From IMG/VR virus record IMGVR_UViG_3300029190_000005: 37,783 bases of DNA; one strand, given 5' to 3'. The translations under genes and the position numbers were made by a program. Under the pieces are notes generated by a model that was given only the letters and a program-made list of their open reading frames with translations, was not told where the DNA came from and searched no databases. The DNA is from a virus. Its lineage: Duplodnaviria; Heunggongvirae; Uroviricota; Caudoviricetes. How positions within the stretch are numbered: position 1 is the first letter of the stretch; the number at the start of each line of letters is the position of its first letter. This document shows positions 1 through 15,703 of the stretch, piece after piece.

Positions 1-75
1 AATGAAGTGAACGGTATTTCCCGCGTGGTGTATGACATCAGCGGCAAGCCGCCAGCTACCATTGAGTGGGAATGA
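1..75 (+). CDS. guaA: 3' end of host GMP synthase-like gene (partial, host flank)
   Basis: Frame-1 translation ends ...NEVNGISRVVYDISGKPPATIEWE* with stop at 73-75; matches the GuaA C-terminus as I recall it. Not database-checked. Confidence 0.5.
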   Translation, partial: NEVNGISRVVYDISGKPPATIEWE

Positions 76-5273: not shown

Positions 5274-5292
5274 AACTTGTTACCTCGGTCTG

Positions 5293-5426: not shown

Positions 5427-6011
5427 TTATTGTTTGTTTTTTTCGTTCTGGTTGATGACAAATTCAATGTAACTTTCGATCTTTGCTTTCTCGGTTTCGG
5501 GTAACAATGCGTAGCGCGAGCGATCATAGTTGATGGTCGCAGGGTCGTGCGGGTGAATCAGTAATTCATAGCCGTGACGCCCGAATGCGGATGCAACATT
5601 CTCCAGGGTGGAAATGGAAACGCTGACCTCATTGTTTAACAGGCGGCTGATTGTCACCTGGGCTACGCCGGATGCGCGGTGAAGTTTTCCCTGTGTTGAA
5701 AGGTCGCGGCTTTCGCTCATCCAGCGTTCCAGGTTGTGAGCCGCCAGCTGGCCAATGTCGCTTGGGCCGACAGGCTGAAAACCTTCCTGAGAAAGCGAGC
5801 GATCGATATCAAGCCAGTTACGGGGTTTATTGGCGGCAGCTTCAATTTTTCGCGCAACCTGATCGCCGATAACCTTCTTACCAAGAGCCCAGCGGTTTAC
5901 CAGATTTGCCTGAGTTCCAAGTTTTTCAGCCATCCGCGTCTGAACACCATTGAATTCACGGTCGATCAAGTCGTTGAGATTTTGCCTGCGGACGTCCTGG
6001 ATACTTTTCAT
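5427..6011 (-). CDS. Prophage repressor (CI-like position), HTH protein without recognisable S24 peptidase domain
   Basis: 194 aa. N-terminal HTH-like segment (RMAEKLGTQANLVNRWALGKKVIGDQVARKIE) and a second HTH-like segment (LHRASGVAQVTISRLLNNE); no Ala-Gly cleavage site or Ser/Lys dyad seen; divergent from the Cro-like gene across an operator cluster. Confidence 0.75.
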   Translation of the reverse strand: MKSIQDVRRQNLNDLIDREFNGVQTRMAEKLGTQANLVNRWALGKKVIGDQVARKIEAAANKPRNWLDIDRSLSQEGFQPVGPSDIGQLAAHNLERWMSESRDLSTQGKLHRASGVAQVTISRLLNNEVSVSISTLENVASAFGRHGYELLIHPHDPATINYDRSRYALLPETEKAKIESYIEFVINQNEKNKQ

Positions 6012-6165: not shown

Positions 6166-6396
6166 ATGAGCGATAACGGACATTTCGATTTCAAAAAGCA
6201 CTGGCTTGCACTTACTCCGGATGAGCGTGAAGCCTTCGCACAGGAAGCCGGAACGACGAGTCACTATATCCAGACTCACTTAACAGGTAAGCGCAAAATG
6301 CCAGGTAAAGTATTGATGAATGGGCTTTTTAAAGCCTGTAAAACAAGACAATGGCTGCGCTCAAAAGCAGAACTGGCATACTTCTTCTACTCATGA
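6166..6396 (+). CDS. Cro-like small regulator
   Basis: 76-aa ORF divergent from the repressor, immediately right of the operator cluster; weak HTH-like features only. Confidence 0.55.
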   Translation: MSDNGHFDFKKHWLALTPDEREAFAQEAGTTSHYIQTHLTGKRKMPGKVLMNGLFKACKTRQWLRSKAELAYFFYS

Positions 6397-6418
6397 TATC
6401 CAGCTACAACCCTCTGTA

Positions 6419-6440
6419 GACCGCCACCCGGCGGTCTTTT
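6419..6440 (+). terminator. Rho-independent terminator after the Cro-like gene (tR1-like)
   Basis: Hairpin GACCGCC (6419-6425) / GGCGGTC (6430-6436) followed by TTTT (6437-6440). Confidence 0.5.
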
Positions 6441-6451
6441 CATATCTATTC

Positions 6452-6466
6452 GTACCTCAAAGGTAA
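6452..6466. promoter_or_regulatory. Operator-like site GTACCTCAAAGGTAA (one mismatch)
   Basis: Sits just after the tR1-like terminator and before the next gene. Confidence 0.4.
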
Positions 6467-6546
6467 TAAAAAACCAAATATGGTTGATATTTTTTTTGTG
6501 TCAGCACAAAATGACCGTAATCCCAATACTAATAACAGGGCTTACC

Positions 6547-6747
6547 ATGGAAATCATTACACGTATTGATGCCGCAAAGCGCGGACTTAAACGCTACTAC
6601 ACCGGAAAAACATGTAAGCACGGACATGACAGTGAACGCTGGGTTTACAACGGACACTGTGTTGAGTGCACCATGGAATCAAACCGTCGTATCAGGGCAG
6701 AGATTAAGCAGATCATGATTAATTCCTCCCCACAACATTCAAGCTGA
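6547..6747 (+). CDS. Small Cys/His-rich protein at the CII position (hypothetical)
   Basis: MEIITRIDAAKRGLKRYYTGKTCKHGHDSERWVYNGHCVEC... has C-x2-H ... C-x2-C spacing suggesting a zinc ribbon. Start at 6547 is my choice; the track ORF begins at 6484. Confidence 0.4.
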   Translation: MEIITRIDAAKRGLKRYYTGKTCKHGHDSERWVYNGHCVECTMESNRRIRAEIKQIMINSSPQHSS

Positions 6748-6762
6748 TAGCGGAGATTAATC

Positions 6763-7578
6763 ATGAGCAGACATGCAACAGATTGGGCCTGGGAGACAGA
6801 TCCAGGTAGCTCATCATTAAAGCTCATACTGCTCTCGATGGCTGACAGAGCCGATGAATATAACCTCTGCTACCCCAGCATAGAACGCCTCGTTAAAGAC
6901 ACTTGCCTGAATAAAAAAACCGTGCAGGCCGGGCTTATATCGCTCATGAAAATGGGGCTTATTTCAGATACCGGAGAGAGAAAGGGAGCGACAAAAAGAG
7001 TGCGGGTTTTCTCTCTTAATATAACCAAAAACGGGAACATTAAAGGCAACCGGGAGGGGGGCAATGAACCCGAAAACGGTAATGTTACCGAAAACGGGAA
7101 TATACCCAAAAACGGGATGTTGAATGATCCCAAAAACGGGATGTTGAATGATCCCAAAAACGGGATCCAGAACCAGTCATATAACCAGTCATTTAACCAA
7201 GAGAGGGAGAGCAGGACAAAAAGCGGGGATTCTGTGCCTCATGACCCCGGAGCAAACAACGCCGTGATGAATAACTTTGTTCCTCCTGGTGGGCCAGGGC
7301 AATTAGGCAAATTTGTCATGCATGAACAATGGCAGCCATCAGATGACTTTCTTCGGAAAAGCTCATTGCAGGGGATCTACCTGGACAGTCTGCCAACGGC
7401 ACAGGAACTTGCAGAGTTCAGAATTTACTGGATGGCTGAGGGTAAGGCATACCATCAGGCACAGTGGGAGCAGAAGCTGGCAAGGCGGCTGCAGATTAGC
7501 AGACAGAAGCAATCAACATTACCTGATAACAACGTTCCGCACTGGAACAGCCCTGAAGCATGGGAGGATTTCTTGTGA
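6763..7578 (+). CDS. Replication initiator (lambda O-like) with internal iterons
   Basis: 271 aa; the N-terminal HTH-like region followed by a repeat-encoded low-complexity linker (PKNGMLNDPKNGMLNDPKNG) is the typical O-like architecture. Confidence 0.75.
   Translation: MSRHATDWAWETDPGSSSLKLILLSMADRADEYNLCYPSIERLVKDTCLNKKTVQAGLISLMKMGLISDTGERKGATKRVRVFSLNITKNGNIKGNREGGNEPENGNVTENGNIPKNGMLNDPKNGMLNDPKNGIQNQSYNQSFNQERESRTKSGDSVPHDPGANNAVMNNFVPPGGPGQLGKFVMHEQWQPSDDFLRKSSLQGIYLDSLPTAQELAEFRIYWMAEGKAYHQAQWEQKLARRLQISRQKQSTLPDNNVPHWNSPEAWEDFL
7024..7174 (+). repeat. Iteron array (putative replication origin) inside the O-like gene
   Basis: About six direct repeats with core (C)CAAAAACGG(G/T)A; two adjacent 24-bp units CCCAAAAACGGGATGTTGAATGAT are identical (7105-7128 and 7129-7152). 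Confidence 0.7.
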
Positions 7579-8360
7579 ACAACGTTTTTACCGCGATACA
7601 AAACCGTGACGGAGAAGCCCTTTCTCGCATGTCAGGTTATGAGCATCAGTACGTCAACAATGACAATGTGGTGAACATGTCAGCAGAGAGGCTTGTTGAT
7701 GCCCTTTTTAAACAGCTGAAACAACTGTTTCCGGCGGCAGTGGTAACCAACCTGAAGACGCCAGAGCAGGAAGTTGCTGCAAAACAGCAGTGGATTGCTG
7801 CGTTTGCCGAAGGGGGGATCCGAACCCGTGAACAGGTTTCTGCTGGTATGCGCCACGCCCGCGCCAGTGAATCTCCGTTCTGGCCGTCTCCAGGGCAATT
7901 TATCAAGTGGTGCAAAGACAGCAAGATGGTTCTTGGCGTCACCATTGACGATGTGATGGCGGAGTTTCACCGGTACAGCAAGGAAAAAAGTTTATATCCT
8001 GGTGGTCCCGAAAGATTCCCGTGGCGACATCCGGTTATGTACTGGGTCGTATGTGATACCCGCCGTGCAATGTATCAGCGCCAGCTTAGCGAGATTGAGG
8101 TTGAGAAACACGCACGCAGGCTGCTCGATGATTGGGCGAAAAAGGTGGCTTCCGGACAGCAGATACCCGATCCGGTGATCAGCATACAGGCAAAGCCAGA
8201 GCCCATGAGTACGCCTCCGGACACAGGGAGAGACGTTTACCATCCACCAGGGCGAAGTTTCGGGTGCATGCCTAACGCCGCCACCCTTGGGGGAATAACA
8301 CCGGCGCAGTGGCTGATGGAGGAATACAGGCGGGGAAAGGCGGCAGGATTTATCAAGTAA
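7575..8360 (+). CDS. Replication protein P-like (helicase loader)
   Basis: Segment AAKQQWIAAFAEGGIRTREQVSAGMRHARASESPFWPSPGQFIKWCKD aligns by eye with lambda P as I recall it; GTG at 7575 is preceded by GGAGGA and overlaps the O-like stop. Confidence 0.8.
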   Translation: MNNVFTAIQNRDGEALSRMSGYEHQYVNNDNVVNMSAERLVDALFKQLKQLFPAAVVTNLKTPEQEVAAKQQWIAAFAEGGIRTREQVSAGMRHARASESPFWPSPGQFIKWCKDSKMVLGVTIDDVMAEFHRYSKEKSLYPGGPERFPWRHPVMYWVVCDTRRAMYQRQLSEIEVEKHARRLLDDWAKKVASGQQIPDPVISIQAKPEPMSTPPDTGRDVYHPPGRSFGCMPNAATLGGITPAQWLMEEYRRGKAAGFIK

Positions 8361-8397
8361 TACCAGCGCGATAGCGCATTTTTTTACGTCTATATGA

Positions 8398-8412
8398 TTA
8401 CCTGGAAGGTAA
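8398..8412. promoter_or_regulatory. Operator-like palindrome TTACCTGGAAGGTAA
   Basis: Perfect TTACC-N5-GGTAA in the intergenic region after the P-like gene. Confidence 0.55.
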
Positions 8413-8459
8413 TAAAATGTTCTAATCTCTATTGATTTCATGTCTTATGTGGTTTTTAA

Positions 8460-8474
8460 TTACCTAAGGGGTAA
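8460..8474. promoter_or_regulatory. Operator-like palindrome TTACCTAAGGGGTAA overlapping an RBS
   Basis: Perfect site; centre 62 bp from the 8398-8412 site; overlaps the SD (AAGGGG) of the gene starting at 8478. Confidence 0.55.
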
Positions 8475-8477
8475 ATC

Positions 8478-8825
8478 ATGAGAAAACAGATACAGGCTCT
8501 TGGTCGACTCAAAACAGGCCAGATGAACAAAACAGAATCTGCGTATTGCCAGCACCTTGAGCTGCGTAAACGTGCAGGGGAAATCGCCTGGTATCGATTC
8601 GAGGGTATCAAGCTGCGGTTAGCTAATAACACGTTCTATACGCCCGATTTCGCTGTGATGCTCGCCACCGGCGAGATGGAGCTGCACGAAGTGAAAGGGG
8701 GATTCTGGACCGATGACGCCAGAGTGAAAACCAAAGTCGCCGCAGATCAGTATCCGTTCCGAATCATCGGGGTAACGGTTAAACCAAAGAAAGCAGGTGG
8801 TGGCTGGAACATCGAAGAGTTCTGA
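8478..8825 (+). CDS. DUF1064-like phage protein (nin-region type)
   Basis: 115 aa; motifs (AWYRFEGIKLRLANNTFYTPDFAV...HEVKGGFWTDDARVKTKVAADQYP) resemble the DUF1064 family from memory. Confidence 0.5.
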   Translation: MRKQIQALGRLKTGQMNKTESAYCQHLELRKRAGEIAWYRFEGIKLRLANNTFYTPDFAVMLATGEMELHEVKGGFWTDDARVKTKVAADQYPFRIIGVTVKPKKAGGGWNIEEF

Positions 8826-8886
8826 ATCGACGATCTATTTAGTTATCAATGTAATCAATAAGTTATGTGGATAAGCGAGGGTAAAG

Positions 8887-9366
8887 ATGGAAAGTAATAT
8901 CAAAGGGTTAGTTGCCGCCGGGCATGAGATGGCTTCGGAACTGAAAGCAGAATGTGGTGCCGTTGATATGCGCAGTGTGGCAAAGCTGATCAGCGATTTG
9001 GCAACGCAACTGGAAGTGCAACTGGTGCGTGCTAATGCGCTGGCGGCGGAGAGTGCGGCAATGCATGAAACTATTGAAGCCGTTCGGAGTGTTGCGGATA
9101 ACTCCAGTGGAATTGCCGGATGGCATTTGAATGGCGATATCGCTACATGGGAAGAGATTCTTCCTGAAATTAACGATATCGAAACTCCAGCCACCGATGC
9201 TTTCCTGGCTGAAGTACGTGCGCAGGCGTTTAATGACCTTTGCTCGGCGTTCGTTAAACACGCGAATCTCGCGGGAATGGATGATGGTGAGCTAGTGAGG
9301 CTTAAATATGCGACGGACGCCCTGCTGCATTGTGCGGAACAGCTTCGCAAAGGAGGCAACCAGTGA
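8887..9366 (+). CDS. Hypothetical phage protein
   Basis: 159-aa ORF with SD (GAGGGTAAAG) before the ATG; co-directional operon context. Confidence 0.5.
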   Translation: MESNIKGLVAAGHEMASELKAECGAVDMRSVAKLISDLATQLEVQLVRANALAAESAAMHETIEAVRSVADNSSGIAGWHLNGDIATWEEILPEINDIETPATDAFLAEVRAQAFNDLCSAFVKHANLAGMDDGELVRLKYATDALLHCAEQLRKGGNQ

Positions 9367-9908
9367 GTGTAACGGTTGAAAAGATTGATGTGTTGTCATT
9401 CGTTATAACCGGTGCAGAGAGACTAGATCCGGTTCGAGTGATGATTGAAAACTATGAACCTGGAAAGGGAAGAATCACCATCACCTGCTACGGAAAAGCG
9501 TGGACTGCGGCTTGGTTTGCTATGGGCGGTGATGATGTGCAGACGTTCATTAAGCGAGTCAGCAACGACTATCTAATCGACAATTTCGACCCTCAACTGC
9601 GAAGCACGGTCGACGATGACAACGATGCAAATCTGCTTTTCGTGAAGTCAGAAATCATAAAGTTACGAAGAGAGAGAGAAATCGACGCCGTACTGGCTCG
9701 CGAAATGTGGTACGAGGCGGAAAACGCCGATGACGTAAAAGAAAGCTGCTGCTGTTTCGGCGTCGGTAACAAACTACTGAATCTCTTTGGTGATGAGCCG
9801 TGGTATGCCAACTGGCCAACGATACCAAACCCGAAATACCAGTATCTGGAACGCGTACTTAATGCAGTGAGAGACGGTCTTAAGCAAATAGAGAAGGTGG
9901 AACCATGA
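9363..9908 (+). CDS. Hypothetical phage protein
   Basis: GTG at 9363 preceded by GGAGG; overlaps the previous stop. Confidence 0.5.
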   Translation: MSVTVEKIDVLSFVITGAERLDPVRVMIENYEPGKGRITITCYGKAWTAAWFAMGGDDVQTFIKRVSNDYLIDNFDPQLRSTVDDDNDANLLFVKSEIIKLRREREIDAVLAREMWYEAENADDVKESCCCFGVGNKLLNLFGDEPWYANWPTIPNPKYQYLERVLNAVRDGLKQIEKVEP

Positions 9909-10204
9909 CTGTATGTCTTATTGATAAACGTCGACGTGGGCAACAAATACCATCTGTTGAAATGCCGAATCACACATGGTTTTGCGTACTTGATATCGAT
10001 GGCATGGATAAGTTTGTTGACACTCGTCATTACTGCGATACCGCAACAGCTACTCCGGCGAAAGCAAAGAAAATGGCTGCTCTGATAGAAAACTGGACTC
10101 CACCTGATGGTTGGTGCAATGGGAATGATCGGGATTGGCATGAAAAAATGAAGGGCTATATCTGCGATTTTTTACGTAAATGCAACGGATTCAGGGTGAT
10201 GTGA
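9905..10204 (+). CDS. Hypothetical phage protein
   Basis: 99-aa ORF overlapping the previous stop (ATGA). Confidence 0.45.
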   Translation: MTVCLIDKRRRGQQIPSVEMPNHTWFCVLDIDGMDKFVDTRHYCDTATATPAKAKKMAALIENWTPPDGWCNGNDRDWHEKMKGYICDFLRKCNGFRVM

Positions 10205-10205
10205 C

Positions 10206-10970
10206 ATGAGCAAGATTGACTATCAGGCACTGCGTGCCAAGGCAGAAAAAGCAACGTGTGGTGTATGGTCGCTCGAATATGGAGAGAGCCGATTTGATGG
10301 TGATGATGCGCTAATTCATCGTGAAGTTGCTGGATATATTCCTATTTGCAGAATTGAAGGAGCGCATCCAGAAAGCGGTTTCGATGAAGATTTCCAAATG
10401 GAACAGCAGGCCAATGCTGAATTCATCGCCGCAGCCAGTCCATCTACCGTGCTGGCACTGCTGGATGAACGGGAAAGAAACCAGCAATACATCAAACACC
10501 GTGACCAGGAGAACGAGGATATTGCGCTAACGGTAGGGAAGCTGCGTGTTGAGCTTGAGGAAGCAAAATCAAAACTCAACGAGCAACGCGAGTATTACGA
10601 AGGTGTTATCTCGGATGGAAGTAAGCGTATTGCTGAACTGGAGAAAAGCGAAGAGCAACTCATTAACGAGCGTGACCATGCTGAGTCTGCTTTAGCTGAT
10701 ATGTATTTTGCAGCAACCGGGGATAGGCCTGAGTGGAGTAACTGGTTCGGTTTTTCAGATGCAGTAGATGCCGTAGTTGACAGAATTGCTGATTTAGAAG
10801 CTAAACAGCCATCGCCAGTAGTACCTGAAGGACTGATTAAAGCGGTGCGTTTTTATGAGCAGGTAAAACGTGAGAACCCGCCAGTCGAAACCGGAGCATG
10901 GAAAGACGCTGTTGACTGGGTGCTCAAAGAGGCTTGCCAGGCTGTAAACATTGGCATCAAAGGAGAGTGA
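10206..10970 (+). CDS. Ea22-like family protein
   Basis: N-terminus MSKIDYQALRAKAEKATCGVWSL... and the acidic coiled-coil middle resemble Ea22-like prophage proteins. Confidence 0.55.
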   Translation: MSKIDYQALRAKAEKATCGVWSLEYGESRFDGDDALIHREVAGYIPICRIEGAHPESGFDEDFQMEQQANAEFIAAASPSTVLALLDERERNQQYIKHRDQENEDIALTVGKLRVELEEAKSKLNEQREYYEGVISDGSKRIAELEKSEEQLINERDHAESALADMYFAATGDRPEWSNWFGFSDAVDAVVDRIADLEAKQPSPVVPEGLIKAVRFYEQVKRENPPVETGAWKDAVDWVLKEACQAVNIGIKGE

Positions 10971-10971
10971 T

Positions 10972-11487
10972 ATGGCGTTAACACACCGCGAACTCTGTCA
11001 GATTGCGTACAAGTTCCTTAAGCGCAACGGGTTCAAGGTTTGTTTTCATGACCGCTTTATAGCTGTAACCAGTACCGGAGAACAGCCAGATGCTATGGGA
11101 TTCAGAAATTCAGCATCATGCCTGATAGAGGCGAAGTGTTCTCGTGCTGACTTGTTGGCAGATAGAAAAAAGCGTTTTCGTAAAAATCCGTCTCTTGGAA
11201 TGGGCGACTGGCGATTCTTTATTAGTGAGCCAGGAATTATTTCAATTGAGGATTTACCACCTGGCTGGGGATTACTTCACGTTGTTAACGGAAGAGTACG
11301 GAAAGTACATGGGTGGCCCAAGGGTAATTGCTGTTGGGGTAATCCTGACGATAAGCCATTTACTGGAAATAAGCAGGTTGAATGCGATTACATGTTATCT
11401 GCATTAAGGCGCATGGAGTTGAGAGGGCACCTTAATGAAATATATGACGGTGTAATTGTTAATAAGAAAGAAGGAAACGCAGCATGA
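10972..11487 (+). CDS. Hypothetical protein, possible PD-(D/E)XK-type nuclease fold
   Basis: ATG at 10972 with AAGGAGAG upstream; candidate catalytic arrangement D (EQPDAMGF) ... E-x-K (LIEAKCS). Weak inference. Confidence 0.4.
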   Translation: MALTHRELCQIAYKFLKRNGFKVCFHDRFIAVTSTGEQPDAMGFRNSASCLIEAKCSRADLLADRKKRFRKNPSLGMGDWRFFISEPGIISIEDLPPGWGLLHVVNGRVRKVHGWPKGNCCWGNPDDKPFTGNKQVECDYMLSALRRMELRGHLNEIYDGVIVNKKEGNAA

Positions 11488-12413
11488 TCACTATTACCAA
11501 AGAACGCCTGCTGACAATCCAGCAGTGGCGCGAAACATACGGACCTGGTAGCAACGTTGTACTGCCAGCAGAAGAAGCGGAAGAACTGGCACGAATTGCT
11601 CTGGCATCGCTGGAGCAGAATGCACTATCTGGCAACTCTCGGCTTATTCCTGGTGAAGTGTTGTCCGCAATCCGGGAGGTTGCCAAGATTCGTGCCGATT
11701 TCGATGATTTTGACGGTGACAGGCGAGGTATCGGTGATTGTCTGGATGAGGCCGAGCAAGAGCTTATCGTTACCATTAACAAATATGCCAGTCAGTTGGC
11801 AGCAGAACCGATAGCGACTAATGACGTTCGAGAGCAGCAGACAGCCGTTCCGCCAGTTCCGGAAATACAGGATGATGTCGCGCAAGCAATTGAAAATCTC
11901 AAGCAGAAGTTAGTGGAATGCAATCGCTATAACTACTGCGCAGATGCAGTTAAAGGCGTAGAGGATGCCTGCCACGCTGCCATGCTTCATAGTGCCGAAC
12001 CTGCAAGTAATCATGAAGAGTTGCCGCTTGATTATCTCCAAGGTCAAAAAGATGGTCTTGAATGGGCTGCGCAGCTTGCAGAAGCAAATCACCCACAAAC
12101 TGGCGACTGGCTTTACGATGACCCGCTGGAGGTGGCTAAAGCTATCAGAAAAGGTCCTGACATGCCCGAATTCGATGGACCAACTCCGGCAACTCCGGAT
12201 GGTTGGATAAGCTGTAGTGAGCGAATGCCGAACGATAAACAGTATGTTTGGTGTTGGGGTAAGTCTTACGGCTGGACTGAGTGCGATACCTTCGAAGGGT
12301 ATTACGATTGGTCGAGAAACAAATGGTGGGCAGTTACTGACGATGGGGAAGAACCGGCATCGAAAGTAACCCACTGGATGCCGCTACCAGAACCGCCGCA
12401 GGAGGTGAAGTGA
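11484..12413 (+). CDS. DUF551-like domain protein
   Basis: C-terminus ...WISCSERMPNDKQYVWCW...HWMPLPEPP matches the DUF551 signature as I recall it. Confidence 0.55.
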   Translation: MITITKERLLTIQQWRETYGPGSNVVLPAEEAEELARIALASLEQNALSGNSRLIPGEVLSAIREVAKIRADFDDFDGDRRGIGDCLDEAEQELIVTINKYASQLAAEPIATNDVREQQTAVPPVPEIQDDVAQAIENLKQKLVECNRYNYCADAVKGVEDACHAAMLHSAEPASNHEELPLDYLQGQKDGLEWAAQLAEANHPQTGDWLYDDPLEVAKAIRKGPDMPEFDGPTPATPDGWISCSERMPNDKQYVWCWGKSYGWTECDTFEGYYDWSRNKWWAVTDDGEEPASKVTHWMPLPEPPQEVK

Positions 12414-12535
12414 TGAACAAGTGCAACGCTCTGCTTTATGCCATGGTGATTGGTTTCGGCCTGGTTGCTGGTATCCGGGTTTATATTACCTGGGAGTCAT
12501 TAATCAATCTGGCGTGGAGTGCGATTCGTGGCTAA
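12413..12535 (+). CDS. Small hydrophobic peptide (40 aa), putative membrane peptide
   Basis: My own translation: MNKCNALLYAMVIGFGLVAGIRVYITWESLINLAWSAIRG*; strong SD GGAGGTG about 6 nt upstream; overlaps the previous stop. Confidence 0.35.
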   Translation: MNKCNALLYAMVIGFGLVAGIRVYITWESLINLAWSAIRG

Positions 12536-12830
12536 ATCCCCCGCAGAACGCAAAGCCGCGCAGCGCGCTCGGCAGTCCGCCGCCGGTGAGCGCAAAATTG
12601 AACTGGTGCTGGATAAGCAGGAGCAGGAAATGCTGGCGCGGAACTGCGCCGCCCGGCGCCCTGGTCGCGATCCCTATGAAATGGCCGAGTACATCGCGCT
12701 GCTGATCCGCCAGGATGATGCACGTGTGCGCGGGCGTATAAAATCGATCAGCAGAAACTTTGCGGTAAGTGCGGCGAGAGAGTTCCCGTTAATTCATGCC
12801 CGTGTAATGGTGACTCGCAATGCTGGGTGA
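12528..12830 (+). CDS. Hypothetical basic protein, last gene before the terminase region
   Basis: GTG at 12528 with GGAG upstream; sequence AKSPAERKAAQRARQSAAGERKIELVLDKQEQEML...; locally GC-rich. Function unknown. Confidence 0.4.
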   Translation: MAKSPAERKAAQRARQSAAGERKIELVLDKQEQEMLARNCAARRPGRDPYEMAEYIALLIRQDDARVRGRIKSISRNFAVSAAREFPLIHARVMVTRNAG

Positions 12831-12914
12831 CTAAAGGCTGGCATGAAACGAAATTAATAGTGTGACATGTCACGAGTAGATTATGCATGATGAATTTGAT
12901 GGGTTTTGAATACT

Positions 12915-12940
12915 GCCGCCAACTATGGCGGCTTTATTTT
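12915..12940 (+). terminator. Rho-independent terminator just upstream of the terminase genes
   Basis: Hairpin GCCGCC (12915-12920) / GGCGGC (12927-12932) followed by TTTATTTT. Confidence 0.5.
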
Positions 12941-12951
12941 GCATGGTACTA

Positions 12952-12966
12952 TTACCACAACGGTAA
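12952..12966. promoter_or_regulatory. Operator-like palindrome TTACCACAACGGTAA before small terminase
   Basis: Perfect TTACC-N5-GGTAA, 9 nt before the proposed terS ATG. Confidence 0.55.
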
Positions 12967-12974
12967 CAATTACC

Positions 12975-13580
12975 ATGGTGGTTATGATGCCTGCTGAACC
13001 TAAAACCTATAAACGCAAATCAACGCAATTTAAGCCACTAACCGCAATGCAGGAGGCTTATTGCCAGTCATACATCAAAACGCCTGAAAACCAGACTCAG
13101 GCAGCGATTAACGCAGGATTCTCCCCAAATACAGCGGCAGTTAAAGCCAGTGTCATGATGCGCGATGAACGCATTCAAAAACGGATTGCCGAGTTGATGG
13201 AGGAGCGCAACAAACGAATGCGCGTCAGTGCCGATTACGTTCTCATGCGCCTGGTGGAGATCGACCAGATGGACGTGATTGATATCCTCAATGACGATGG
13301 GAGCCTTAAGCCAATCCGCGAGTGGCCGAAAATCTGGCGCACTACGCTTAGTGGCTTTGATCTGTCATCGACCATCATGAACATGAACGAGGATTCGATA
13401 GAGACAATTCTCAAAAAAATTAAATGGCCTGACAAGGTGAAGAACCTCGAACTGATTGGTAAGCACGTCGACGTCAATGCATTCAAAGAACGCCTGGATG
13501 TTAATGTGAATGTGACAATTGCTGATCGCATAGCGGCAGCCAGGAAGCGACTCAAAGAACGTCAGGATGGTAATCAGTGA
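12975..13580 (+). CDS. Terminase small subunit
   Basis: About 200 aa directly upstream of and overlapping the large terminase; basic N-terminus with HTH-like segment (TAMQEAYCQSYIKTPENQTQAAINAGFS). Exact start uncertain (ATG at 12975, 12984 or 12987). Confidence 0.65.
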   Translation: MVVMMPAEPKTYKRKSTQFKPLTAMQEAYCQSYIKTPENQTQAAINAGFSPNTAAVKASVMMRDERIQKRIAELMEERNKRMRVSADYVLMRLVEIDQMDVIDILNDDGSLKPIREWPKIWRTTLSGFDLSSTIMNMNEDSIETILKKIKWPDKVKNLELIGKHVDVNAFKERLDVNVNVTIADRIAAARKRLKERQDGNQ

Positions 13581-15046: not shown

Positions 15047-15050
15047 AGTT

Positions 15051-15656
15051 TTAAGCAGCATTGTCTGTGTTGCGATTGTTCCTTGAGTTAAACTTATTTG
15101 CAATTCTGGTATTGGATTTTATTTTTTCTTCTGCAAGTTCTTTTTCAAGCGCCATTATTTTTTCAATAAGGGAATCTCTTTCCTGCAAAAAAGAATTCAA
15201 AGACTCTTGGTGCTTGATTAAATCATTTTTATAGAATTGAATCTCAGACTCAAACTCAACCTTAACTCTGTCGTATGTAATGTCCCTTTGTGCCTCAAGC
15301 TTACGCAATTCTATGGCGTTTTTAACATCCCTGAGGCTTTTGTTGTGTTTGAAGTTATCGATGTTCTGTAGTGGAATTTTTTGAAACATCACCACTATAT
15401 TGTTAAACCATGGAACTATTACACACAGCGCGAATGCACATAAAGCTGGATATAAGAGTGAGTGGTACGCATCACTATGGGAAGATATATAATTTATTTT
15501 TTCTTCAATTCCTGACTTACTGAAGAATAAAAATAATAGTGGATTCCAGTTAAAAGAACACCACGAAAACACAAATGCCCCAAGTGCTGGGTTGCGGACT
15601 CTCTCTGACGCTGTGCTAATAGCCGATGATGCGATCTCTTTAAATTGCTCGAACAT
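15051..15656 (-). CDS. AT-rich moron: membrane protein with C-terminal coiled coil (unknown function)
   Basis: 201 aa on the opposite strand to the flanking late genes; markedly AT-rich; two hydrophobic segments (GAFVFSWCSFNWNPLLFLFF, LLYPALCAFALCVIVPWFNNIVVMF) then a charged heptad-like region; operator-like site just upstream. Confidence 0.55.
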   Translation of the reverse strand: MFEQFKEIASSAISTASERVRNPALGAFVFSWCSFNWNPLLFLFFSKSGIEEKINYISSHSDAYHSLLYPALCAFALCVIVPWFNNIVVMFQKIPLQNIDNFKHNKSLRDVKNAIELRKLEAQRDITYDRVKVEFESEIQFYKNDLIKHQESLNSFLQERDSLIEKIMALEKELAEEKIKSNTRIANKFNSRNNRNTDNAA

Positions 15657-15688
15657 GTCTAAACCAGATGTTAAATGTTTTTGTTATC

Positions 15689-15703
15689 TTACCTTCAAGG
15701 TAA
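15689..15703. promoter_or_regulatory. Operator-like palindrome TTACCTTCAAGGTAA upstream of the moron
   Basis: Perfect TTACC-N5-GGTAA, 33 nt upstream of the moron ATG. Confidence 0.55.

What the first reader, a model, noticed from the sequence alone, without database searches (positions are those of the whole stretch)
12830..12975. Terminator and 12-bp palindrome immediately upstream of terminase; no Q or lysis genes between P and terS
The 145-bp gap before terS contains a perfect palindrome GTGACATGTCAC (12862-12873), a strong terminator (12915-12940) and an operator-like site (12952-12966) overlapping the terS RBS region. No recognisable Q antiterminator, holin or endolysin lies between the replication genes and terminase. 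Late expression may use terminator read-through by an unrecognised factor (the basic 12528..12830 protein is a candidate) and/or direct repressor control.
Basis: partly seen in the sequence, partly recalled or inferred. Interest (0 to 1): 0.45.

Follow-up and report, generated by a model that had tools for sequence, protein, structure and literature searches.

The report
Repressor-controlled terminase promoter behind a terminator
This stretch is the ordinary junction between the early genes and the DNA-packaging genes of an epsilon15/phiV10-type prophage: a terminator, then a promoter covered by two prophage-repressor sites, so no lambda-style Q protein is needed, and the only unexplained part is a small palindrome conserved across several phage families.

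Summary
The window is a Uetakevirus (epsilon15/phiV10-like) prophage at guaA, about 100% identical to phage EC.W1-9. This genus has no Q gene, and its lysis cassette sits after the tailspike. Here that position lies beyond an IS629 that cuts the window's last gene.

The terminator (12915-12940, -16.2 kcal/mol) is conserved across genera. The "operator-like site" is the core of O1 (12951-12967). A second site, O2 (12969-12985), covers the terS ribosome-binding site. Both fit ATTACC-N5-GGTAAT, which occurs 17 times in the window against 1 expected. The sites flank the repressor gene and precede most transcription units. The epsilon15 RefSeq record already annotates a terminator and a repressor site at this position.

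The candidate factor gene (12528-12830) is frameshifted in this lineage, yet the identical phage EC.W1-9 was isolated as a free phage. An essential antiterminator role is therefore unlikely.

The palindrome lies on that gene's ancestral stop codon. As GTGAC-NN-GTCAC it is conserved in podo-, sipho- (N15) and myophages (ZF40), and epsilon15 has three copies at operon ends. Its function is unknown.

Verdict: ordinary and largely already annotated. The palindrome is a modest new lead.

The parts
12528..12830 (+). Frameshifted copy of the phrog_536 'transcriptional regulator' gene (epsilon15 gp49 / phiV10 p55 / N15 gp46 family). Only residues 1-77 match the family.
   Evidence: PHROG hit 1.3e-31 covers 1-77 of 100 aa, whereas phiV10 p55 matches full length at 1.5e-54. 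The frameshift lies at the A-run 12755-12757.
12758..12866 (+). Out-of-frame remnant of the ancestral C-terminus (CGKC...CPC, zinc-ribbon-like), ending at TGA 12864-12866.
   Evidence: This frame is intact and translates to ...CGKCGERVPVNSCPCNGDSQCWVTKGWHETKLIV*, as in 72 of 77 relatives.
12862..12873 (.). Conserved palindrome GTGAC-AT-GTCAC on the ancestral stop codon of the regulator gene. It is the only copy in this window.
   Evidence: Invariant in the 8-genome alignment while the flanks vary. Kept after the stop codon in ZF40 and in L093. N15 gene 46 ends in GTGACTGGTCAC. epsilon15 has three copies. Unique in the window.
12883..12909 (+). Eight-codon mini-ORF MHDEFDGF*, the in-frame remnant of a moron slot. 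Its stop codon lies 5 nt before the terminator stem.
   Evidence: 26 of 77 relatives carry a 69-aa ORF ending YDEFDGL* at the same place. M-x-DEFDGF* is kept in Klebsiella, Scandinavium and Buttiauxella with synonymous changes, but is absent in epsilon15-type genomes.
12915..12940 (+). Intrinsic terminator closing the early-right operon.
   Evidence: The stem and T-tract are conserved in most genera sampled and missing in two of them. The homologous site is annotated as a rho-independent terminator in epsilon15 (39646-39672).
12944..12952 (+). Candidate extended -10 promoter element TGgTACTAT for the terS operon (inferred).
   Evidence: TGnTAnTAT is present in all 12 genomes compared. Only the n and the third hexamer position vary among 17 haplotypes. 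The -10/operator overlap is the same as at PL, TTGACA-17-AATTAT. The -35/-10 scan does not find it.
12951..12967 (.). Operator O1, ATTACCACAACGGTAAC, a repressor (Rep) site overlapping the -10 and the inferred start site.
   Evidence: It corresponds to the epsilon15 'protein_bind repressor' feature at 12-27. Half-sites are invariant and the spacer varies.
12969..12985 (.). Operator O2, ATTACCATGGTGGTTAT, covering the ribosome-binding site GGTGG (12977-12981) and abutting the start codon.
   Evidence: The epsilon15 equivalent is ATTACTTCGGTGGTAAC.
12987..13580 (+). terS (small terminase subunit), first gene of the packaging operon.
   Evidence: Pfam Terminase_2 at 1e-29 and phrog_51 at 8e-58. 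Start as annotated in EC.W1-9 and epsilon15.
5427..6011 (-). Prophage repressor (Rep), the presumed trans-acting partner of O1 and O2.
   Evidence: Full-length homolog of the SPC32H Rep, PDB 5D50, E = 4e-42. It is flanked by the same operator motif at 5292, 5354 and 6066.

Best explanation
The interval is the boundary between the early-right operon and the terminase operon of a Uetakevirus prophage. Transcription coming from the replication and accessory genes stops at the intrinsic terminator (12915-12940). The terminase operon then starts from its own weak sigma-70 promoter of the extended -10 type (TGgTACTAT, 12944-12952). Two tandem 17-bp repressor operators cover that promoter: O1 sits on the -10 and start site, and O2 sits on the ribosome-binding site.

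In the lysogen, the SPC32H-type repressor encoded at 5427-6011 occupies O1 and O2, together with about a dozen identical sites elsewhere in the prophage. The packaging genes therefore stay silent. When the repressor is inactivated, probably by a LexA-controlled antirepressor, the promoter fires. No Q-like antiterminator is involved. The lysis genes form a separate unit at the far end of the genome.

Shown: the sequence elements, their conservation, the genome-wide over-representation and placement of the operator motif, the homology of the repressor, and the family's gene order.
Inferred: that Rep binds these sites, that TGgTACTAT is the promoter, and that the terminator works.
For: - Identity and layout: the window is about 100% identical to EC.W1-9 and closely related to phiV10 and epsilon15. 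In all three the lysis cassette follows the tailspike.
- Operator motif: 17 hits against 1.0 expected. They lie at OL (5292, 5354) and OR (6066), after the terminators at 6418 and about 8375 (sites 6451, 8397, 8459), before terS (12951, 12969), before the gene-3 homolog (16312) and before the tailspike (35922).
- Prior annotation: epsilon15 RefSeq annotates a terminator at 39646-39672 and a repressor site at 12-27, directly before terS.
- Repressor: homolog of the SPC32H Rep at 4e-42. A Rep tetramer is reported to engage palindromic sites (PMC9638917).
- Conservation: in most of the genera compared, the terminator stem, TGnTAnTAT and both half-sites are kept while the spacers drift. Two prophages lack the terminator.
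- Geometry: at PL, a 10/12 sigma-70 match, the last two bases of the -10 are the first two bases of an operator. The terS element has the same overlap.
- Terminator: -16.2 kcal/mol, z = -4.4.
- Experiment in a close relative: overexpressing the repressor of ZX5 (identical terS) lowers holin and endolysin mRNA by more than 99.9% (PMC9782041).
Against: - No experiment shows Rep binding at these sites or maps a start site. The two SPC32H papers that might define the operator could not be read.
- The standard -35/-10 scan finds no promoter between the terminator and terS. The extended -10 is my own reading, and its -35 region lies inside the terminator stem.
- If every unit is controlled only by Rep, nothing explains early versus late timing. 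An unidentified activator could still be needed.
- O1 and O2 are 18 bp apart centre to centre, which is not an integral number of helical turns. Other operator pairs are 62 bp apart.
- The ZX5 result does not separate direct from indirect repression.
Confidence: 0.6

Rival explanations
1. Late (terminase) expression depends on read-through of the 12915-12940 terminator. The small basic protein encoded just upstream (phrog_536, a probable ribbon-helix-helix plus zinc-ribbon protein) promotes this, perhaps through the GTGAC-AT-GTCAC palindrome.
For: The protein family is uncharacterised and is labelled 'transcriptional regulator'. Its gene is the last early gene before terS. In epsilon15 all three copies of the palindrome lie within 0-34 nt of an intrinsic terminator at the end of a rightward operon. 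The palindrome stays attached to the gene's 3' end in podo-, sipho- and myophages.
Against: - The gene is frameshifted and loses the zinc-ribbon part in this window and in phage EC.W1-9.
- The same lineage has lost the other two palindromes.
- 17 relatives with an intact gene also lack the copy after terL.
- The palindrome lies upstream of the terminator at two epsilon15 sites and downstream at the third, which does not fit a single antitermination geometry.
- A conserved promoter-like element and operators lie downstream of the terminator.
- Two relatives, L087 and L089, lack this terminator altogether.
Confidence: 0.1
2. The palindrome is the binding site of the phrog_536 protein or of another dimeric DNA-binding protein. 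It marks operon ends and accessory-gene slots as a boundary, bridging or roadblock element, and is independent of terS promoter control.
For: - The arms GTGAC/GTCAC are invariant while the centre varies (AT, AG, TG, AC, CT, GC), as expected for a dimer site.
- In terS-anchored loci the 2-nt spacing occurs 161 times, against 0 for 0, 1, 3, 4 or 6 nt.
- The site persists when the stop codon moves away from it (L093, ZF40).
- DNA beyond each copy is variable, holding different morons.
- The arms are identical to the MatP site GTGACRNYGTCAC (PMC6907758).
Against: - No binding data exist.
- No homology between the regulator and MatP was detected (hhalign probability 0.18). There is no Pfam or PDB sequence hit, and the structure model is poor (pLDDT 59).
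- The centre is 2 nt rather than the 3 nt of matS.
- Yersinia P2-like homologs lack the site, and in the Vibrio phage it is displaced.
- The presence of extra copies does not track an intact regulator gene.
Confidence: 0.3
3. The mini-ORF plus terminator is a translation-coupled attenuator. A ribosome finishing the 8-codon ORF (stop at 12907-12909, 5 nt before the stem) masks the 5' arm of the hairpin and lets early transcription run into terS.
For: The peptide M-x-DEFDGF* is kept in four genera with synonymous changes. Longer ORFs in other relatives stop at the same position. The stop-to-stem distance fits a ribosome footprint.
Against: The mini-ORF is absent in epsilon15, 65FD, C. braakii and P. 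vulneris, which keep the terminator. It is simply explained as an in-frame deletion remnant of the 69-aa moron. No alternative antiterminator fold is evident. Its Shine-Dalgarno sequence is weak.
Confidence: 0.07
4. The palindrome is the packaging recognition or cleavage site (pac or cos). This was suggested by its position just before terS and by the phiV10 record starting inside it.
For: phiV10 position 1 corresponds to window 12866-12867. The site is close to terS.
Against: The phiV10 record was simply opened right after the stop codon of gene 55. epsilon15 has three copies and phiV10 two and a half, including one after the structural operon. The same motif sits at the homologous gene end in N15 and ZF40, far from their terminase genes. 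The epsilon15, SPN1S and Tyrion records start at other positions.
Confidence: 0.03

Closest known systems
Salmonella phage epsilon15 (NC_004775.2): annotated terminator at 39646-39672 and 'repressor' binding site at 12-27 in front of terS
   Same: Homologous position and the same order: regulator gene, palindrome, terminator, ATTACC-N5-GGTAAT site, terS. The same operator family is found at the immunity region, before gene 3 and before the tailspike.
   Different: The window has a clearer second operator (O2) and a mini-ORF between palindrome and terminator. Its regulator gene is frameshifted, and it has one palindrome where epsilon15 has three.
Salmonella phage SPC32H Rep/Ant switch (PDB 5D50, 5D4Z)
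   Same: The window's repressor is a full-length homolog (4e-42). A LexA box (35868-35883) precedes a small leftward gene beside the tailspike. As I recall the SPC32H work, its LexA-controlled ant gene is placed similarly.
   Different: I could not read the SPC32H papers, so the operator sequence and any binding at late promoters are not verified here.
Phage P1 C1 repressor with operators dispersed over the genome, and mycobacteriophage L5 gp71 'stoperators' (from general knowledge)
   Same: One immunity repressor with many sites spread through the prophage, including in front of or inside morphogenesis operons. Late genes are therefore silenced directly rather than only through a cascade.
   Different: The sites here are symmetric 17-mers in intergenic regions, next to promoter-like elements and after terminators. 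P1 late promoters also need the activator Lpa. L5 stoperators are asymmetric and act on elongation.
Lambda-type late control (Q, qut, PR', tR')
   Same: A strong terminator stands between the early genes and the head genes.
   Different: There is no Q homolog. The terminator lies upstream of the candidate late promoter, not downstream of it. The lysis genes are not between the regulators and the terminase.
E. coli MatP/matS (GTGACRNYGTCAC)
   Same: The 5-bp arms GTGAC/GTCAC are identical. From my own knowledge MatP uses a ribbon-helix-helix domain, and the phage regulator looks ribbon-helix-helix-like on weak grounds.
   Different: The centre is 2 nt, never 3 (161 against 0). No sequence homology to MatP was detected.

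Membership tests
Uetakevirus (epsilon15/phiV10-like temperate podophage) genome | Nucleotide similarity to type members and the shared gene order: int, early-left genes, rep, cro, replication genes, accessory genes, terS, terL, portal ... tailspike. | tested here: met
   About 100% identity to EC.W1-9 over 61-37693, 93-98% blocks to phiV10 and 75-82% blocks to epsilon15. Gene order agrees.
Uetakevirus (epsilon15/phiV10-like temperate podophage) genome | Lysis cassette (holin, endolysin, spanins) located after the tailspike, next to attP/int. | not testable with these tools
   True in EC.W1-9, phiV10 and epsilon15. The window ends in IS629 inside the tailspike gene. No complete E. coli genome holds this junction. 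A related prophage has lost the cassette behind an IS1.
SPC32H-type repressor/operator immunity system | A repressor homologous to the SPC32H Rep. | tested here: met
   PDB 5D50, E = 4e-42, residues 1-190 aligned.
SPC32H-type repressor/operator immunity system | A repeated palindromic operator flanking the repressor gene, with the same motif at the site in question. | tested here: met
   ATTACC-N5-GGTAAT at 5292, 5354, 6066 and at 12951, 12969. There are 17 hits against 1.0 expected.
SPC32H-type repressor/operator immunity system | Physical binding of Rep to the site, and repression of the adjacent promoter. | not testable with these tools
   No binding data could be reached. The only support is the computational 'protein_bind' feature in epsilon15.
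Rho-independent (intrinsic) terminator | A GC-rich hairpin immediately followed by a U-tract, more stable than shuffled sequence. | tested here: met
   7-bp stem (6 GC pairs), 4-nt loop, TTTATTTT tail. -16.2 kcal/mol, z = -4.4.
Rho-independent (intrinsic) terminator | Compensatory base changes in the stem among relatives. | tested here: inconclusive
   The stem is almost invariant (GCCGCC/GGCGGC). The only change is a G-C to G-U pair in Buttiauxella. The separate terminator after terL does show compensatory changes.
Lambda Q-type late antitermination module | A Q-family protein encoded upstream of the late operon. | tested here: not met
   No antiterminator family is hit among the ORFs from 6166 to 12830. 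None is annotated in EC.W1-9, phiV10 or epsilon15.
Lambda Q-type late antitermination module | A constitutive late promoter followed by a terminator that must be read through. | tested here: not met
   The terminator precedes the conserved promoter-like element and operators. terS follows with no further terminator.
Sigma-70 extended -10 promoter | A TG at -15/-14 and a TAnnnT hexamer. | tested here: met
   TGgTACTAT at 12944-12952. TGnTAnTAT is present in 12 genomes.
Sigma-70 extended -10 promoter | A mapped transcription start. | not testable with these tools
   No transcript data are available.
MatP/matS | A 13-bp site GTGAC-RNY-GTCAC. | tested here: not met
   The arms match but the centre is always 2 nt (161 against 0 for 3 nt). 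The consensus comes from PMC6907758.
MatP/matS | A MatP-homologous binding protein. | tested here: not met
   hhalign of the regulator family against MatP gives probability 0.18. No Pfam MatP hit.
Leader-peptide transcription attenuator | A short ORF ending at or inside a terminator, conserved wherever the terminator is conserved. | tested here: not met
   The mini-ORF is present in 4 genera but absent in the 4 epsilon15-type genomes that keep the terminator.
pac/cos packaging site | A single site per genome at the physical DNA end. | tested here: not met
   epsilon15 has three copies, and the motif is also found in N15 and ZF40 away from the terminase genes. The phiV10 record start is an annotation choice. 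Physical ends cannot be tested.

The most novel reading that the evidence does not exclude
GTGAC-NN-GTCAC is the recognition site of the uncharacterised phrog_536 protein (a probable ribbon-helix-helix plus zinc-ribbon protein). Together they would form a small, dispensable site-plus-protein system shared by temperate podo-, sipho- and myophages of enterobacteria. It would mark operon ends and accessory-gene slots, for example as a bridging, boundary or roadblock element with matS-like half-sites. This prophage lineage would be in the course of losing it, since the gene is frameshifted and two of the three sites are gone.
Probability: 0.25. Interest if true: 0.6.

Novelty: already known. Interest (0 to 1): 0.3.

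Why it matters
Mainly as a correction. A lambdoid expectation (Q plus lysis genes before the terminase) does not apply to epsilon15-like phages, so their absence is not a sign of a hidden factor. These prophages are common, occurring in 635 of 5,426 complete E. coli genomes.

The sequence does support a simple layout: short operons, in several cases bounded by a terminator, many preceded by the same repressor site. This resembles the dispersed-operator scheme of P1 more than the lambda cascade. No experiment on this was found for the genus, and it is easy to test.

The conserved GTGAC-NN-GTCAC palindrome, tied to an uncharacterised regulator gene in three phage morphotypes, is a cheap and specific lead for a new DNA-protein pair.

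Tried and rejected
- The phiV10 record starts inside the palindrome, which looked like a cos end. I rejected this because the record was opened right after the stop codon of gene 55.
- Structure of the regulator: the AlphaFold model has pLDDT 59, so I did not run a fold search. PDB sequence and profile searches returned nothing. Pfam and NCBIfam gave only sub-threshold hits, the best being the LexA-regulated ribbon-helix-helix protein at E = 0.05. All 120 listed homologs (of 720 found) are unnamed or 'hypothetical'/'phage protein'.
- MatP homology: not supported.
- Rfam: only a sub-threshold rseX match, driven by the terminator.
- I looked for the window's exact genome to see what lies beyond the IS. 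No complete E. coli genome has the junction.
- The 14-mer scan of viral contigs returned many unrelated contexts, and random matches are expected. Only the Uetakevirus-type contexts were informative.
- Frameshift versus loss of the second palindrome: no real association. 17 loci with an intact gene also lack the second copy.
- Recurrent ATATGGTTT near the operators is only weakly enriched (19 against 10.5). I did not pursue it.
- The SPC32H and epsilon15 primary papers could not be opened. Searches for Uetakevirus transcription data found nothing useful.
Full report
**What the window is.** Bases 61-37693 are about 100% identical to Escherichia phage EC.W1-9 (PP445227.1), permuted so that the window starts at the integrase end. 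Large blocks match phiV10 at 93-98% and epsilon15 at 75-82%. Bases 1-75 are the 3' end of guaA. guaA is the integration site reported for the sister phage ZX5 (PMC9782041). The last 90 bases are the end of IS629/IS1203, which interrupts the tailspike gene at 37694. The window is therefore a Uetakevirus prophage. The same terS-upstream DNA occurs in 635 of 5,426 complete E. coli genomes.

**Checking the observation.**
- The palindrome GTGACATGTCAC is at 12862-12873.
- The terminator is at 12915-12940. It has a 7-bp stem with six GC pairs, a 4-nt loop and the tail TTTATTTT. It folds at -16.2 kcal/mol, z = -4.4, with 0 of 200 shuffles as stable. It is one of the three best terminator-like sites between 5 and 17 kb.
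- The "operator-like site" 12952-12966 is the core of ATTACCACAACGGTAAC at 12951-12967.
- PHROG and Pfam scans of the annotated ORFs from cro (6166) to terS found no Q-like or lysis protein.
- Four details need correcting. terS starts at ATG 12987, behind the ribosome-binding site GGTGG. The site that overlaps the ribosome-binding site is a second operator at 12969-12985. The upstream ORF is a frameshifted gene, as described below. A perfect 12-bp palindrome is not unusual by chance, with 4 seen against 9.1 +/- 3.3 expected.

**The missing Q and lysis genes.** This is the normal layout of the genus. EC.W1-9, phiV10 and epsilon15 all place holin, endolysin and spanins after the tailspike, next to attP and int. 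None of them has a Q homolog. In this window that position lies beyond the IS. No complete genome in the collection contains the junction. In a sister prophage (strain IMT16316), an IS1 follows the tailspike and the lysis cassette is gone. In epsilon15 and phiV10 the lysis cassette has its own upstream repressor-type site.

**The operator family.**
- ATTACC-N5-GGTAAT with up to 2 mismatches occurs 17 times in the window. The expectation is 1.0, and none of 100 shuffles reaches 17.
- The sites bracket the repressor gene at 5292, 5354 and 6066.
- Further sites follow the terminator after cro (6451) and the one after the P-like gene (8397, 8459). Others precede terS (12951, 12969), the gene-3 homolog (16312) and the tailspike (35922), and some lie in the moron region.
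- The epsilon15 RefSeq record annotates the same motif as 'repressor' binding sites at the immunity region, before gene 3, before the tailspike and at 12-27, directly before terS. It also annotates a rho-independent terminator at 39646-39672, just upstream.
- The window's repressor (5427-6011, minus strand) is a full-length homolog of the SPC32H Rep (PDB 5D50, 4e-42). A Rep tetramer is reported to engage palindromic sites (PMC9638917).

**A promoter between the terminator and terS.**
- The -35/-10 scan finds nothing there.
- TGgTACTAT (12944-12952) fits an extended -10 element. TGnTAnTAT is present in all 12 genomes compared, including two that lack the terminator.
- Among 17 haplotypes of close relatives, the variable positions in this stretch are the 'n', the third hexamer base, the operator spacers, the base between O1 and O2, and single variants at 12941, 12980 and 12985. 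The O1 half-sites and the terminator stem are invariant.
- At PL, the best sigma-70 match in the region (TTGACA-17-AATTAT), the last two bases of the -10 are the first two bases of an operator. The terS element has the same overlap.
- I infer a start near 12959. O1 would then sit on the -10 and start site, and O2 on the ribosome-binding site.
- In ZX5, repressor overexpression lowers holin and endolysin mRNA by more than 99.9%. This is consistent with the model but does not show direct control.

**The candidate factor gene.**
- The 12528-12830 product matches phrog_536 ('transcriptional regulator') only over residues 1-77. phiV10 p55 matches over its full length.
- The window has lost one A in the run at 12755-12757. 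The ancestral frame continues through a CGKC...CPC motif to TGA 12864-12866.
- 72 of the 77 related loci scored show the full 112-aa gene. The frameshift is seen in EC.W1-9 and in two further IMG/VR contigs (L005, L031).
- EC.W1-9 was deposited as a phage isolated from sewage. The full-length protein is therefore unlikely to be essential for late expression, although the N-terminal part remains.
- The family has no Pfam domain and no PDB relative by sequence. The homologs listed from the sources are unnamed or called 'hypothetical'/'phage protein'.
- The AlphaFold model is too poor to use, at pLDDT 59.

**Between the palindrome and the terminator.** 26 of 77 relatives carry a 69-aa ORF here, ending YDEFDGL*. 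Klebsiella and other prophages carry different small genes, some with LexA boxes. The window has an 8-codon in-frame remnant, MHDEFDGF* (12883-12909). Its stop codon lies 5 nt before the terminator stem. The peptide is kept in four genera but is absent in epsilon15-type genomes. The simplest reading is an accessory-gene slot. A translation-coupled attenuator remains a low-probability alternative.

**The palindrome.**
- T-GTGACATGTCAC-G is invariant in an 8-genome alignment while both flanks vary.
- It overlaps the regulator's stop codon in E. coli, Salmonella, Klebsiella, Citrobacter, Scandinavium, Buttiauxella and Pseudescherichia prophages.
- It persists when the stop codon lies elsewhere, as in L093 and in Pectobacterium myophage ZF40.
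- The N15 homolog, gene 46, ends in GTGACTGGTCAC, and a second identical copy lies in repA.
- epsilon15 has three copies: on the gp49 stop, just after the terL terminator, and on the gp18 stop just before a terminator. phiV10 has two plus one imperfect copy.
- 57 of 76 close relatives carry a copy after the terL terminator, and the DNA beyond it is variable.
- In terS-anchored loci the arms occur 161 times with a 2-nt centre and never with a centre of 0, 1, 3, 4 or 6 nt.
- The arms equal those of the MatP site GTGACRNYGTCAC (PMC6907758). However, the centre is one base shorter, and no homology between the regulator and MatP was detected.
- The window and EC.W1-9 retain only this one copy.
- A packaging role is unlikely, because there are several copies and the motif also occurs in N15 and ZF40 away from their terminases. 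The phiV10 record start inside the palindrome is an annotation choice.
- My best guess is a protein-binding site, most likely for the protein whose gene it closes. It would mark operon ends or moron slots. This is untested.
- The open-access library holds no phage paper containing the sequence.

**Verdict.** The terminator and the repressor site in front of terS, and the absence of Q and lysis genes there, are normal for this genus. They are already annotated in its type phage. Factor-driven read-through by the upstream protein is not. The palindrome is a real conserved element of unknown function and is the only part that may be new.

Noticed in passing
window 12755-12757: One A is missing from an A-run, which frameshifts the phrog_536 regulator gene. 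The change is shared with phage EC.W1-9 and with the two IMG/VR contigs L005 and L031. 72 of 77 relatives show the full 112-aa gene.
   Followed up: yes
window 37694-37783: The end of IS629/IS1203 (IS3 family) interrupts the tailspike gene (36042 onward), so the prophage is probably defective. The window ends inside the IS.
   Followed up: partly
window 1-75 and 210-226: The 3' end of guaA (…IEWE*) marks the attL side. A repressor-type site (ATTACCTTAAAGGTATA, 2 mismatches) lies just upstream of int.
   Followed up: partly
window 35868-35883: A perfect LexA box, CTGTATGTTTATACAG, lies between a small leftward gene (35589-35846) and the tailspike, next to a perfect repressor operator at 35922-35938. 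As I recall the SPC32H work, this resembles its SOS-controlled antirepressor arrangement.
   Followed up: partly
window 5292/5354 and 8397/8459: Two pairs of repressor operators share exactly the same 62-bp spacing. The terS pair (12951/12969) is only 18 bp apart. The 62-bp spacing might reflect a tetrameric repressor contacting two sites.
   Followed up: no
window 6418-6467, about 8370-8413 and 12915-12967: A 'terminator then operator' module occurs three times along the rightward direction: after cro, after the P-like gene and before terS. The rightward genes appear to be cut into separately controlled units.
   Followed up: partly
window 5319, 5419, 34522, 35970 (exact); 6478, 8447 (1 mismatch): The motif ATATGGTTT recurs on the + strand in intergenic regions close to repressor operators. 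Overall enrichment is weak (19 against 10.5 expected) and the meaning is unknown.
   Followed up: partly
window 15047-15700; L002 2262; L085 2142: Most relatives have a bidirectional-looking terminator and a second GTGACATGTCAC copy right after terL, followed by variable leftward morons. The window instead has a different leftward gene (15051-15656) and no palindrome.
   Followed up: partly
window 32591-35565: The moron region before the tailspike carries two YafO-family toxin genes and a Bro/Ant-type antirepressor, according to the RefSeq annotation of an identical prophage (L086). Each has repressor-type sites nearby (33413, 34473, 34598).
   Followed up: no
L084 2860-2915 and several loci: In Klebsiella and other relatives, the slot between the palindrome and the terminator holds a small gene preceded by its own LexA box (TACTGTTTAAATATACAGTA). 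This looks like an SOS-induced moron inserted just before terS.
   Followed up: no
L217 3238 (N15 record 33237): N15 carries a second exact copy of its GTGACTGGTCAC variant inside repA, far from gene 46.
   Followed up: no
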